Shown here one piece after another: positions 27,001 to 30,000 of a stretch of DNA of 64,000 nucleotides. The stretch lies in the NCBI GenBank assembly GCA_965204775.1, contig CBDBFH010000028.1:25555-89554 (forward strand), in the 5' to 3' direction. This stretch comes from Alphaproteobacteria bacterium. Its GTDB lineage: Bacteria; Pseudomonadota; Alphaproteobacteria; JAPOUT01; G958296285. The position numbers were made by a program. Within the stretch, counting starts at the first letter, position 1, and each line of letters begins with the position of its first letter.

Positions 27001-30000
27001 CGCGGGCCCGTGCGGCGCATGGCGTCGGTCAGCTGAGCGTGAAACTCTTCGGCGCTGTGCGCCCGGCTTGCCTCGACCCCCATCCCGCCCGCCAGCTGCG
27101 CCCAGTCCAGATCGGGATTGCCCAAATCAAACAGCGCGAGCGGCCCCGGCCCCGGATTGGCCGCCCCGGCGCGGGCCAGCTCGAACTGCAAAATCCGGTA
27201 GGCGCGGTTGGAGAAGATGACCGTGAGCACGTCCAGTTTCTCGCGCGCCTGGGTCCACAGACTCTGCAGCGTATACATGGCCCCGCCATCGCCGTGCAGG
27301 CAGATCACCTTGCGCTCCGGGCAGGCAACGCTTGCCCCGACCGCAAGCGGCAGGCCCTGGCCGATGGCCCCGCCGGTGAGCGCAAGCAGGTCATGCGCCG
27401 GCGCACTTGCCAGCGCGCCATAGAGGGCAAGGCCGGAAGTCGCCGACTCATCACAGACGATTGCGCCTTCCGGCAGGCAGGCGGCGAGGCTCTGGGCAAT
27501 GCTTTCAGGCGTCAGGCCGCCTGCTTTGGGCGGCGCGGCGGGCGCCGCGGACACGCGCCCGGCAGGCTCTTTGGGGGCCTTGAGATGGGCGGCCAGTTCC
27601 GACAAGGCGCGCGCGCCGTCCTCGTGTGGGTGGCAGAGGGTGACGCAGGCCGTTCCTTCGGGCAGCAGGCTGGAGGGCAGGCCGGGATAGGCGAAAAAGG
27701 AAACCGGCGCGCGCGTGCCCGCCAGCAGCAGGCAGTCAAACGGGGCGAGCGTTTCCAGAACCTGTTCGGGGAAATAGGGTATGCGGGCGGCGGCAACCCG
27801 CCCGCGCCCGCGCTCGATCCGGGGGGCGAAGGTGTCGCAGAAAAGTTGCGCCCCGGTTGCGGCGGCGATCCGGCCTGCATGTTCCAGCGCTGCGGCGCGC
27901 AAGGAGGCCCCGCGCAACAGGATGGCGGGCTTTTTTGCTGCCTTCAGGGCGCGGGCGGCGCGCTCGATGGCGGCGGGCGCAACGGGCGCGGGCGCAGGAC
28001 GCGGCAAAGGCGGGGCGGGGCCTTCGGCCTCGCCCCAGGCGGCGTCGGCGGGCAGGATCAGACTGGCGATCTGTCCGGGCGGCTCGCATGCCGCCCGGAC
28101 GGCGCGCGCGGCAGACGCGGCGGCGCGCGCGGCATCGGGCGCGCGCGCGATCCAGCCCGAGACCGGGCGCGCCAGGCTTTCGATATCCGACGTCAGGGGC
28201 GCATCATGGGGCAGATGGAAGCCGGGATGATCGCCGATGATGTTGACCAGCGGCGCGGCGGCGCGGCGCGCGTTGTGCAGATTGGCGATGGCATTGCCCA
28301 GGCCCGGCCCCAGATGGAACAGGGTTGCGGCGGGCGCGCCGGTCATCCGGGCGTAGCCGTCGGCGGCGGCCGAGGCCACGCCCTCGAAGAGAACCAGAAC
28401 GGCGCGCATGTCCGGCACGCGGTCGAGGGCGGCGACCAGATGAATCTCCGATGTTCCCGGATTGGCGAAGCAGACCTTGACGCCTGCGCCGCACAGGGTG
28501 CGCAAAACGCTTTCCGCGCCGTTCACCAAACCTCTCCCATATCATCTAAGACGCTTAAGTGCGTCATCAGCAACTATCTTATGTATGATAGATTTAACCA
28601 CTTTATCGAGTTGCTGGCCATCAGAGTAGTTGGCTGGAGCACAAAAATCAGCGCGTCCCTGTTTGATAAGATCTTGTCCCGCTTTCTTGCCCCCCTCACC
28701 TCTAGCATGCGGCTTATAAACTGCTATTGCATGGCCACCCTTATATTTAACCATTTTAAAACATGGAATATCTGTCGCACTATCGCCAATATAGATCATA
28801 CGCTCAAAGGGAATTGGCCGCTTTTCCTCTGGTGTATAATTATTCAATTTCTTATTCTCGCTTACGTCATGAATTCCCTTATTAATACGAAAGAGGTATT
28901 GCGTTTTATTAGTATAATTCACGGCAAGCGCAGGCCATTGTGCAACCTCATGCTGATCATACATAAATGAAGAAGCAAAGATTTTTTTGATTTTTTTGAT
29001 TTTCCCGGCTTTTTGCACACCTTCGATAAATTCACGCAAGCCGGATGAAATTATAAAATGTTCAATCTTGACTCCGAAAGATTTCCCATATTCTGCAATA
29101 CGTTCAAACCAGCCTTCAACTCCTTCAAAAACATCGATTTCTTTTCCACTTTTCACAAAGCTATCTTTGCGAATCTTCTTTTTCTTTTCATTGGCTTTCT
29201 CGAGCATTAGTTTCATATACACAAGGACCTCGTCTGCTTCTTTTTCCTTTGCCAGCTTTCCAACCTCTGCCCAGAATGATTTTTTTGCCAACTCAAGATC
29301 TGGCAAGAAAGCATGCTCCTGCATATTACCTGGAGCCAGAGTGCCATCAAAGTCATAAATCAGAGCCATCGAAATCAATCTTCTCGGCATTGTTTTCAGC
29401 CTCTCTCAGCATTTTCAATGTTATTAGCCCGCAAGCTGGACAAAAATAATGACCAGTCCGGCTATGCTCACCGTCCAGATGCCGGTGCGCAGCAGGGGAA
29501 TGCCGCTTGCATAAGCTGGAACATAGGCCAGGCGCGACCAGAAAAAGAGATGAGCGGCCAGCCGTGTCGTTTCATTCAGCTGGCCGGTTACTTTTCCCAT
29601 GATGACGAGAATGGCGAAAACCGGCAGGGATTCGAGAAGATTGCGGTGGGCGCGCTGGAGGCGTCCGGCGAGGCCGTCATAGACGACTCTGCGCTCCATC
29701 TGCCCGTCGGCCTGCCGCCGCCCGACGATCGGCGGCAGGACGGCCTGAACCAGGGCCAGCATGGCGGCGGCCAGCAGGAGGATAAGTTCGGTTTCCATGG
29801 AGCCGCGCCCCTCTTTCTCCAGTGGTTTATTGCGCCCGCTTGTCGGTGACGATGACCGCCGGATCGTGCGGCGTGGCGTAGAGGCGGGCAACGATTTTGG
29901 CGCGCGCGGTCAGCGCCGCCGACTGGTTGATATAGCCCTTGTCGGTGATCTCGCCGGCGTCCATGCTGGGGGGGGTGCGCAAAACCAGGGCGCGCCCGAT

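What the first reader, a model, noticed from the sequence alone, without database searches (positions are those of the whole stretch)
28530..29430. Sharply AT-rich single-gene insertion (HAD-IB phosphatase) seamlessly embedded in a GC-rich operon
Composition drops from about 68% to about 40% GC for roughly 900 bp, and the drop coincides exactly with one ORF (28542-29390). The protein is Lys-rich and AAA/AAG-heavy. It carries the HAD motifs DFDGTL, IISSG and IYIGDSATD, closest to the HAD-IB MtnX/PSPase-like layout. The gene is not at a tRNA and has no flanking repeats or integrase. It sits with its own GAGAGG RBS only about 12 nt upstream of the next gene's RBS. The operon it sits in reads feruloyl-CoA-synthetase-like ligase, then MAPEG, then HAD, then TPP enzyme. 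This pattern suggests a foreign gene captured into a functional operon, possibly supplying a phosphatase step for that pathway, rather than a mobile element. The donor must have been a low-GC organism.
Basis: seen in the sequence. Interest (0 to 1): 0.6.

Follow-up and report, generated by a model that had tools for sequence, protein, structure and literature searches.

The report
Orphan defence-linked HAD phosphatase gene insertion
A single AT-rich foreign gene sits inside a GC-rich metabolic operon; it encodes a phosphatase from a mobile family usually found nested in restriction-modification (anti-phage) loci, so it is probably a stray defence-type gene and not a new step in the operon's pathway.

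Summary
ORF 28542-29390 (minus strand, 282 aa) has GC 0.40 and GC3 0.36, against GC3 0.72-0.87 in its neighbours (z about -9). It lies between a MAPEG gene and a TPP-enzyme gene, with 33-nt and 12-nt spacers.

The protein is a catalytically intact, C1-capped HAD-IB-like phosphatase, but not MtnX or SerB. Its specific family is PADLOC PDC-S34 (E 3e-118), an unvalidated "phage defence candidate".

- **Family context:** In 12 of 24 non-redundant loci closest to it, the homolog sits just upstream of hsdR inside a Type I R-M operon. Other copies lie in a Type III R-M, in a defence island, or alone among housekeeping genes.
- **Absence in relatives:** None of 80 related loci holding the TPP-enzyme gene (37 of them with the ligase upstream) contains a HAD.
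- **No metabolic partner:** No metabolic gene recurs next to family members.
- **No mobility signature:** There is no integrase, flanking repeat, usable tRNA or Type I R-M gene nearby.

Best reading: a recently acquired orphan copy of a mobile, conflict-associated phosphatase, expressed by operon read-through. The substrate is unknown; a nucleotide is inferred by analogy. The "pathway phosphatase" idea is not supported. This is a new member of a known candidate family, of moderate interest.

The parts
28542..29390 (-). HAD-superfamily (IB-like, C1-capped) phosphatase gene, 282 aa; PADLOC family PDC-S34; GC 0.40
29391..29423 (-). 33-nt AT-rich spacer between the MAPEG stop and the HAD start; carries the HAD Shine-Dalgarno GAGAGAGG (plus-strand CCTCTCTC at 29400-29407), 9 nt before the ATG
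   Evidence: Sequence read directly.
28530..28541 (-). 12-nt spacer between the HAD stop (TGA) and the TPP-enzyme start (TTG 28529 or GTG 28526); contains the TPP gene's SD GGGAGAGG (plus-strand CCTCTCCC at 28531-28538). The left composition boundary is at about 28537-28541.
   Evidence: Sequence. 30-nt GC profile. The database copy of the TPP protein (P0121) is 515 aa, which matches the GTG start.
29424..29798 (-). Upstream neighbour: MAPEG-family membrane protein, 124 aa. Its last ~10 codons share the low GC of the insert.
   Evidence: PF01124 at E 9e-22, profile positions 2-128 of 129. GC3 gradient 0.85, 0.70, 0.62 along the gene, and T-ending codons at the 3' end.
26979..28529 (-). Downstream neighbour: TPP-dependent enzyme of the PRK07586 type (annotated 'acetolactate synthase large subunit'), GC 0.71
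   Evidence: NF005760 at 727 bits against a cutoff of 363; Pfam TPP_enzyme_N and TPP_enzyme_C.
29827..31707 (-). Operon member: acyl-CoA synthetase (PRK12582 type), conserved upstream of the TPP gene in Parvibaculaceae-like relatives
   Evidence: NF009232 at 774.8 bits, just under its cutoff of 777; PF00501. Synteny in 37 of 80 related loci.

Best explanation
The feature is one horizontally acquired gene of about 0.9 kb. It is an orphan copy of the PDC-S34 family of HAD phosphatases.

Shown:
- The protein is a full-length, high-confidence HAD fold with a helical C1 cap. All catalytic motifs are intact: the nucleophile pair D13/D15, S115/S116, K162/K171 and D203/D207.
- Its family is mobile and patchily distributed across phyla. 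About half of the closest sampled relatives lie in the cargo slot just upstream of the restriction subunit of Type I R-M operons, and one lies in a Type III R-M.
- Here the gene has no R-M partner. It lies in the short spacer between the MAPEG and TPP-enzyme genes of a conserved catabolic operon, on the same strand, with its own SD and no intervening terminator.

Inferred:
- It came recently from a donor of roughly 40% GC, by illegitimate or microhomology-mediated insertion.
- It is transcribed by operon read-through.
- It works on its own as a Mg2+-dependent phosphomonoesterase on a small molecule. A nucleotide is most likely, because every characterised defence HAD acts on nucleotides.
- Its value to the cell lies in phage or mobile-element conflict, not in the ligase/TPP pathway.

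The defence role itself is guilt by association and has not been tested experimentally.
For: - Foreignness: GC 0.40 and GC3 0.36 against 0.72-0.87 in the neighbours, z = -9, codon-adaptation score 0.40 against 0.57-0.77.
- Family identity: PADLOC PDC-S34 at E 3.4e-118 over the full length, while curated metabolic HAD models fall below their cutoffs.
- What PDC means: PDCs are defined by embedding in Type I RM, BREX or DISARM loci (10.1101/2024.01.29.577857).
- Independent context check: the order hsdM, Bro-N or RhuM, hsdS, optional Shedu / AbiTii / SLFN cargo, HAD, hsdR, YgjP/SprT is seen in Geobacter, Trichlorobacter, three alphaproteobacterial plasmids and two metagenomic lineages.
- Embedding rate: hsdR lies within 3 kb downstream in 12 of 24 non-redundant loci that are at least 51% identical to the window protein. 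One locus is Type III Mod-HAD-Res and one sits in a defence island beside PDC-S02.
- Core membership: the window protein is 55% identical (median) to R-M-embedded members, which are 57% identical to each other. It keeps 54 of 56 invariant residues.
- Other orphans exist: P0078 beside an RND efflux pump, and L091, an AT-rich solo copy beside a class II ribonucleotide reductase.
- Absence at the homologous locus: no HAD in any of 80 relatives, although ADH-ligase-slot-TPP-NMO synteny is conserved.
- Structure: pLDDT 93.5. The best matches are HAD-IB enzymes and cytosolic 5'-nucleotidase III/IIIB.
- Nucleotide-acting defence HADs: MisB, Chp and the PUA-Cal-HAD phosphatase.
- Fusion partners are an HNH endonuclease and a serine recombinase, not metabolic enzymes.
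- No terminator lies between the operon genes.
Against: - No anti-phage activity has been shown for PDC-S34. [quoted passage not shown]
- About half of the close relatives, and most of the more distant ones (2 of 14 embedded at 45-51% identity), are not in R-M loci. Many have only housekeeping neighbours.
- The window contains no Type I R-M gene, and none of the 23 window ORFs scanned against Pfam or NCBIfam is a known defence gene; only the HAD was scanned against PADLOC.
- The nearest homolog is only 58% identical, so the donor is unidentified.
- No close relative of the host exists in public data, so an empty site was not demonstrated.
- Transcription was not measured.
Confidence: 0.6

Rival explanations
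1. Generic mobile 'house-cleaning' phosphatase with no immune role. On this reading the family is a small-molecule phosphatase that spreads horizontally. Its presence in R-M operons is either hitch-hiking in a permissive cargo slot or an accessory service to ATP- and SAM-consuming R-M enzymes. The copy here is a neutral or mildly useful passenger.
For: Roughly half or more of family members lie outside any detected defence locus, and their neighbours are heterogeneous housekeeping genes. PDC-S34 is unvalidated. In most loci the HAD's GC matches its flanks (mean difference -0.013), as expected for long-resident genes.
Against: Sitting directly upstream of hsdR in 12 of 24 close relatives across several phyla, and also inside a Type III R-M and a defence island, looks far more frequent than expected for a random metabolic gene; no base rate was computed. 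Start and stop codons overlap or nearly abut those of hsdS and hsdR, which suggests co-expression with the R-M. Fusions are to an HNH endonuclease and a recombinase.
Confidence: 0.22
2. Metabolic recruitment. The foreign HAD was fixed because it supplies a dephosphorylation step to the ligase / MAPEG / TPP-enzyme pathway.
For: The gene is placed on the same strand with its own SD, has very short spacers and no terminator, and so is probably co-transcribed with the operon. The ORF is intact and all catalytic residues are present.
Against: None of the 80 related loci holding the TPP-enzyme gene has a HAD; 37 of them also keep the ligase upstream. The slot between ligase and TPP holds unrelated small membrane proteins, or nothing, in relatives. 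No acyl-CoA ligase or TPP enzyme appears among the 25 most frequent Pfam families in the neighbours of 34 other family members. From general knowledge, acyl-CoA ligase and TPP-enzyme chemistry needs no phosphomonoester intermediate. The almost un-ameliorated GC3 argues against long co-adaptation.
Confidence: 0.08
3. Decaying remnant. The gene is the last survivor of a larger inserted R-M or defence island and is non-functional without its HsdR partner.
For: Its closest relatives are typically co-expressed with hsdR. No partner is present in the window.
Against: The ORF is full length and keeps 54 of 56 invariant residues. No R-M pseudogene fragments are present, and the flanks are only 33 nt and 12 nt long. 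Flanking host genes are intact and syntenic. Other intact orphans exist in unrelated genomes.
Confidence: 0.07
4. Assembly chimera. The AT-rich segment was mis-joined into a contig of a GC-rich genome.
For: The source appears to be a single 324,663-bp contig held only in NCBI/ENA, with no close relatives. The composition change is abrupt.
Against: An artefact would need two junctions that fall exactly in an intergenic spacer, keep strand and SD spacing, leave both flanking genes complete, and leave ligase and TPP enzyme linked on both sides, as they are in relatives. The same kind of solo AT-rich insertion occurs independently in L091.
Confidence: 0.03

Closest known systems
PADLOC PDC-S34 (single-gene 'phage defence candidate', from Payne et al., guilt-by-embedding; bioRxiv 10.1101/2024.01.29.577857)
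   Same: Full-length HMM match at E 3.4e-118. Same length of about 280 aa and the same invariant motifs. The closest homologs sit in the hsdS-hsdR cargo slot of Type I R-M operons.
   Different: This copy is not embedded in or near any defence system. It lies in a metabolic operon and is compositionally foreign. The family has no demonstrated anti-phage activity or known substrate.
PrrC/RloC-type genes embedded between hsdS and hsdR of Type I R-M (from my own knowledge; PrrC is also cited as almost exclusively RM-embedded)
   Same: Same genomic logic in the family's typical context: a single extra gene nested just upstream of hsdR, plausibly co-expressed with the R-M.
   Different: Unrelated protein: an anticodon nuclease with an ABC-ATPase domain, against a HAD phosphatase. 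No evidence of latent-toxin behaviour for the HAD. Unlike PrrC, about half of the HAD family is found outside R-M loci.
Defence-system HAD phosphatases: Metis MisB (m6dAMP to m6dA), the PUA-Cal-HAD phosphatase (dATP to dADP), Chp CARF-HAD (ATP, dATP, IMP), and DS-9B
   Same: HAD-superfamily, C1-capped, Mg2+-dependent phosphatases used in phage conflict, all acting on nucleotides. The link to N6-adenine-methylating systems is shared conceptually.
   Different: Different HAD subfamily (PF12710 here; MisB is PF13419). The window has no calcineurin-like partner, no PUA domain, and no CARF or TM domains. Those proteins work as parts of multi-component systems, while this one stands alone.
HAD subfamily IB enzymes (ThrH, phosphoserine phosphatase, MtnX) and cytosolic 5'-nucleotidase III/IIIB
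   Different: Only 12-21% identity. Curated HMMs are below cutoff. No PDB sequence homolog. Family-specific elements include the invariant WPALAxNYTxKTQYLFRINKG segment, whose N-terminal half lies on a beta-hairpin at residues 134-155, and a long C-terminal helix at about 260-281.

Membership tests
HAD superfamily | Four catalytic motifs: DxDx(T/V); S/T; K; (G/S)(D/S)x3-4(D/E) | tested here: met
   D13-F-D15-G-T17; I-I-S115-S116-G; K162 and K171 (both invariant in the family); G-D203-S-A-T-D207.
HAD superfamily | Rossmannoid alpha/beta core fold | tested here: met
HAD subfamily IB (TIGR01488; PSP/ThrH/MtnX class) | [quoted passage not shown] | tested here: inconclusive
MtnX (TIGR01489) | Score at or above the curated cutoff | tested here: not met
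   23.1 bits against a cutoff of 81.55. The ORFs scanned within about 7 kb on either side include no methionine-salvage gene.
Phosphoserine phosphatase SerB/PSP | Match to a curated equivalog model | tested here: not met
   No PSP model appears among the NCBIfam hits at E of 0.01 or better. The similarity is structural only, at 16-21% identity.
PADLOC PDC-S34 | Full-length match to the family HMM (the only requirement for a single-gene PADLOC system) | tested here: met
   PDLC05002 at E 3.4e-118, 392 bits, protein residues 6-280 against profile positions 5-274 of 284.
PADLOC PDC-S34 | Embedded in, or adjacent to, a Type I RM, BREX or DISARM locus (the basis on which the candidate was nominated) | tested here: not met
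   No hsdM, hsdS, hsdR, YgjP, Bro-N, RhuM or Shedu homolog in the 64 kb. The neighbours are metabolic genes.
PADLOC PDC-S34 | Confers protection against phage | not testable with these tools
   No publication found for PDC-S34.
Metis (MisA + MisB) | HAD (PF13419) encoded next to a calcineurin-like phosphoesterase (PF00149) | tested here: not met
   No PF13419 hit. The neighbours are MAPEG and a TPP enzyme. System definition taken.
PUA-Cal-HAD | HAD encoded with a PUA-Calcineurin-CE protein | tested here: not met
   No such neighbour. System definition taken.
Chp (CARF-HAD effector) | HAD domain followed by four TM helices and a CARF domain | tested here: not met
   The protein is 282 aa with HAD-family Pfam matches only. 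Definition taken.
Integron gene cassette | attC recombination site (at least about 50 nt, imperfect inverted repeats) downstream of the ORF | tested here: not met
   Only 12-15 nt separate the HAD stop from the next start codon, and no inverted repeat flanks the ORF.
tRNA-linked genomic island | Integrase, a tRNA target and direct repeats | tested here: not met
   No integrase domain among the 13 Pfam-scanned ORFs between 21.5 and 36.4 kb. The sole tRNA call is 4.3 kb away inside an ORF. No flanking repeats beyond a 6-nt SD hexamer.

The most novel reading that the evidence does not exclude
PDC-S34 HADs could be phosphatases for modified nucleotides, for example m6dAMP. On this reading they travel with N6-adenine-methylating, ATP-dependent R-M systems (Type I and Type III) to control the pool of methylated mononucleotides. 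That pool is now known to be an immune alarm signal (Metis, PUA-Cal-HAD). Controlling it could prevent self-triggering after a new methylase is acquired, or could block salvage of methylated nucleotides into phage DNA. Orphan copies like this one would then act autonomously, and would show that the gene spreads as a gene-sized cassette without any recombinase. What fits: the association with adenine-methylase R-M systems; the structural similarity to cN-IIIB, an m7GMP-specific nucleotidase; and the MisB precedent. None of this tests the idea.
Probability: 0.1. Interest if true: 0.7.

Novelty: new member of a known kind. Interest (0 to 1): 0.35.

Why it matters
The finding would matter for three reasons:

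- **Defence genes outside islands.** It is a clean natural example of a defence-candidate gene living far from any defence island, inserted seamlessly into a housekeeping operon. Island-based discovery methods miss genes in this situation.
- **An enzyme worth testing.** PDC-S34 is a widespread, well-delimited family (274 clusters at 50% identity with E of 1e-30 or better). It is catalytically intact, has no solved structure and no known substrate, and is repeatedly linked to adenine-methylating R-M systems. Recent work has shown HAD phosphatases and methylated mononucleotides to be central to several immune systems.
- **Annotation.** The gene should not be read as part of the ligase/TPP pathway.

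The single instance in this window establishes no new biology on its own.

Tried and rejected
- **Source contig.** Exact look-up of the HAD protein found nothing on record, so the source record and organism name were not obtained. Cluster look-up showed only a single NCBI/ENA contig of 324,663 bp.
- **Empty site in close relatives.** The genome-collection scan with the TPP enzyme gave nothing above 63% identity. The 5.8-billion-protein search gave nothing above 64% apart from the protein itself. Only distant synteny could be used.
- **MAPEG in relatives.** MAPEG homologs were not detectable by tblastn. The slot holds a LysE-like gene in Parvibaculum.
- **Flanking repeats.** Repeat searches gave only chance-level matches. 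The 6-nt CCTCTC at both ends is equally well explained as two SD sequences.
- **Own promoter.** The only promoter-like site upstream of the HAD overlaps its start codon, so it was not used.
- **Other libraries.** Rfam found nothing in 26.0-32.5 kb. PHROGs had no match. PDB sequence search had no homolog. Phage genomes gave one fragmentary hit. Nine IMG/VR contigs matched, two of them R-M-embedded.
- **Literature.** There is no main-text mention of PDC-S34, and nothing in the supplements of the PDC preprint.
- **The other low-GC zone (45-49 kb).** It contains glyQS, an enoyl-CoA hydratase and an NMO gene. These are ordinary core genes.
- My reference 28542-29387:- dropped the start codon rather than the stop. 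Alignment A1 and the model therefore cover residues 2-282 and are numbered one lower than the full-length protein. Residue numbers in this report use full-length numbering.
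Full report
**1. Observation**

A 200-nt sliding window shows GC dropping from 0.66-0.79 to 0.36-0.45 between about 28,530 and 29,450, then recovering. No other part of the 64 kb does this.

The drop coincides with ORF 28542-29390 on the minus strand, 282 aa.
- Gene GC is 0.400 and GC3 is 0.364. The eight neighbouring genes have GC3 of 0.72-0.87.
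- A codon-adaptation score against the neighbours is 0.40, against 0.57-0.77 for the neighbours themselves.
- Among all 849-nt windows that do not overlap the ORF, the mean is 0.667 (sd 0.030, minimum 0.557), which gives z = -9.

The Lys and AAA/AAG bias is also real.

Gene order on the minus strand is acyl-CoA synthetase (29827-31707), MAPEG (29424-29798), HAD, then a PRK07586-type TPP enzyme (26979-28529).
- The MAPEG stop and the HAD ATG are 33 nt apart, with GAGAGAGG 9 nt before the ATG.
- The HAD stop and the TPP start are 12-15 nt apart, and that spacer holds the TPP gene's GGGAGAGG.
- No terminator-like site separates these genes.
- At 30-nt resolution, the low-GC zone starts at about 28,537 and ends at about 29,460, which is roughly 35 nt inside the 3' end of MAPEG.

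**2. What the protein is**

General HAD models match only weakly.
- PF12710 scores 48.8 bits.
- TIGR01488 (HAD-IB) scores 37.4 bits against a cutoff of 45.
- TIGR01489 (MtnX-like) scores 23 bits against a cutoff of 81.6.

PADLOC's PDC-S34 model, by contrast, matches over the full length at E 3.4e-118.

PDCs are "phage defence candidates". They were nominated because the gene family is found nested inside Type I RM, BREX or DISARM loci (bioRxiv 10.1101/2024.01.29.577857). They are not experimentally validated as a class (PMC13645617). No searchable paper or supplement mentions PDC-S34.

The family is large but well delimited.
- More than 7,800 hits were found in the 90%-clustered database. The best non-self hit is 58% identical, from Geobacter, Trichlorobacter, Methylomonas, Desulfobulbaceae, Prolixibacteraceae and many metagenomes.
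- An exhaustive scan of 1.84 billion representatives found 274 clusters at E of 1e-30 or better.

The window protein keeps 54 of the 56 positions that are invariant in 43 other members. The two changes are F134I and the middle G of GDG becoming S.

An AlphaFold2 model from a 44-sequence alignment is high-confidence (pLDDT 93.5, pTM 0.92). It shows:
- a Rossmannoid core;
- a five-helix C1 cap at residues about 23-104;
- a beta-hairpin at residues 134-155, overlapping the start of the invariant WPALAxNYTxKTQYLFRINKG segment;
- a long C-terminal helix.

Structural searches agree on the fold class but not on the closest enzyme.
- Foldseek ranks cytosolic 5'-nucleotidase III/IIIB first, at E 4e-11.
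- No PDB entry is a sequence homolog.

The fold-class assignment (HAD-IB-like) therefore stands. Membership of MtnX or SerB does not, and the substrate cannot be inferred from the fold.

**3. Family context**

Every annotated or Pfam-labelled locus of the closest homologs that I first opened showed the same operon: hsdM, Bro-N or RhuM, hsdS, optional extra cargo, HAD, hsdR, then a YgjP/SprT-like metalloprotease. The HAD start and stop overlap or abut those of hsdS and hsdR. The examples are:
- Geobacter sulfurreducens and Trichlorobacter lovleyi;
- plasmids of Methylocystis rosea, Rhodobacter xanthinilyticus and Neotabrizicola shimadae, two of them with a Shedu nuclease as additional cargo;
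- two metagenomic lineages, one with AbiTii and SLFN-type cargo.

A wider, unbiased sample of 80 metagenome loci and 9 IMG/VR loci gave the following after de-duplication at 90% identity, counting only loci with at least 3 kb of downstream sequence:

| Identity to the window protein | Loci | hsdR within 3 kb downstream, same strand |
|---|---|---|
| 51% or more | 24 | 12 |
| 45-51% | 14 | 2 |
| Below 45% | 4 | 0 |

The remaining close relatives fall into two groups.
- Other defence contexts: one lies between Type III Mod and Res, and one lies next to PDC-S02 (Mrr-type) and a PD-T4-9-like gene.
- True orphans among ordinary genes: beside an RND pump, a class II ribonucleotide reductase, and peptidase S51, an alpha/beta hydrolase or MscS.

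In a bulk scan of 114 neighbours of non-Type-I members, no metabolic family recurred.

The window protein is as similar to R-M-embedded members (median 55%) as they are to each other (57%), so it is a core member of the family and not an outlier.

Longer family members are fused to an HTH-HNH endonuclease, to a serine recombinase, or to an uncharacterised C-terminal domain of about 150 aa. The family is essentially absent from phages.

**4. Host locus**

The window carries no hsdM, hsdS, hsdR, YgjP, Bro-N, RhuM or Shedu homolog. All scanned neighbours are ordinary chromosomal genes: SDR, NMO, DUF3179, MscS, Zn-ADH, SRAP, DUF2157, and further out glyQS, an enoyl-CoA hydratase and a beta-lactamase-fold protein.

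Eighty loci encoding relatives of the TPP enzyme were retrieved, from Rhizomicrobium, Parvibaculum, Bradyrhizobium and others, at 63% identity or less.
- 37 of them keep an ADH-ligase-slot-TPP arrangement, often with NMO downstream.
- None contains a HAD homolog, even at E of 10.
- The slot between ligase and TPP holds a LysE-like membrane protein in Parvibaculum and nothing in L054.

The junction is therefore variable, but it is never occupied by a HAD.

A close-relative empty site could not be shown. The best non-self homolog of the TPP enzyme among 5.8 billion proteins is 64% identical, and the source contig could not be retrieved.

**5. Mechanism of arrival**

No integrase, attC, inverted repeats or usable tRNA is present. 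The only repeat is the hexamer CCTCTC (GAGAGG on the coding strand) at 28531-28536 and 29400-29405. It could be a 6-nt microhomology or duplication from an illegitimate insertion, or simply two Shine-Dalgarno sites. The data cannot tell these apart.

Gene-sized GC dips confined to the HAD ORF also occur elsewhere:
- in L091, with 0.41-0.44 against 0.62-0.66 in the flanks;
- more mildly, inside R-M operons in L112, L094 and L105.

This family is therefore repeatedly exchanged as a single-gene unit.

An assembly artefact is unlikely. It would require two mis-joins exactly at gene boundaries that preserve strand, SD spacing and the flanking synteny.

**6. Interpretation**

The best-supported reading is an orphan, recently acquired copy of a mobile, conflict-associated HAD phosphatase. 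It is probably expressed by read-through of the host operon.

The enzymology is inferred, not shown. The intact motifs argue for a Mg2+-dependent phosphomonoesterase. From general knowledge of HAD enzymes, the large C1 cap argues for a small-molecule substrate and against a protein substrate. Every characterised defence HAD acts on nucleotides:
- MisB dephosphorylates m6dAMP;
- the PUA-Cal-HAD phosphatase converts dATP to dADP;
- Chp dephosphorylates ATP, dATP and IMP;
- the substrate of DS-9B is unknown.

This protein is not a member of any of those systems. It belongs to a different Pfam family and has no partner genes.

The main rival is that the family is a generic mobile phosphatase whose embedding in R-M loci is incidental.

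**7. Verdict**

The gene is a new, orphan member of a known but uncharacterised candidate family. Interest is moderate to low for this single instance. The family itself is a reasonable experimental target.

Noticed in passing
window 24200-24274 (+): ARAGORN calls a tRNA-Pro(ggg) that lies entirely inside the SDR ORF 24167-24949 (Pfam adh_short_C2 at E 5e-56). It is probably a false positive in GC-rich coding sequence. It is the only tRNA call in the 64 kb.
   Followed up: partly
window 29424-29460 (3' end of MAPEG) and MAPEG as a whole, 29424-29798: The GC decline begins inside MAPEG. Its last sense codons include ATT ATT TTT and CTT, which are unusual for a genome with GC3 of about 0.8. GC3 falls 0.85, 0.70, 0.62 along the gene. 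MAPEG may be an older acquisition, or the insertion junction may lie within its 3' end. This is unexplained.
   Followed up: partly
window 28531-28536 and 29400-29405: The same hexamer, CCTCTC (GAGAGG on the coding strand), brackets the HAD ORF. It serves as the SD for the TPP gene and for the HAD. It could be a 6-nt duplication or microhomology left by the insertion, or functional convergence.
   Followed up: partly
L009, L033 about 5230-5960; L054 5995-6001: The slot between the acyl-CoA ligase and the TPP-enzyme gene varies between alphaproteobacterial lineages. It holds a LysE-like membrane protein of about 220-240 aa in Parvibaculum, nothing in L054, and MAPEG (plus the HAD) in the window.
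   Followed up: partly
L001, L006, L087-L089, L179, L181: The Type I R-M operons that carry the HAD share a fixed frame: a short extra hsdS-like ORF, hsdM, a Bro-N or RhuM gene, hsdS, variable cargo (Shedu, AbiTii, SLFN/AlbA_2 ATPases, an unknown 554-aa protein), HAD, hsdR, then a YgjP/SprT-like metalloprotease.
   Followed up: partly
L101 4158-10188: Here the HAD homolog lies between a Type III methyltransferase (Mod) and the Type III restriction helicase-nuclease (Res). Embedding is therefore not restricted to Type I systems.
   Followed up: partly
P0243, P0251, P0244/P0250/P0263, P0264, P0286: Family members with extra domains: HTH + HNH_3 endonuclease + HAD; serine recombinase (Resolvase + HTH_7) + HAD; HAD + a conserved unknown C-terminal domain of about 150 aa (matching the longer PDC-S34 HMMs); HAD + DJ-1/PfpI; and two copies of an unknown N-terminal repeat + HAD. 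Some of these could be gene-call fusions.
   Followed up: no
L091 2764-3964: An independent case of a solo AT-rich HAD (GC 0.41-0.44) in a genome of about 0.63 GC. It lies downstream of a class II (B12-dependent) ribonucleotide reductase and is followed by a terminator-like GC hairpin.
   Followed up: partly
window 45000-49000: A milder low-GC stretch (about 0.60) covers glyQ/glyS, an enoyl-CoA hydratase and a second NMO-family gene. These are ordinary core genes, not an island.
   Followed up: yes
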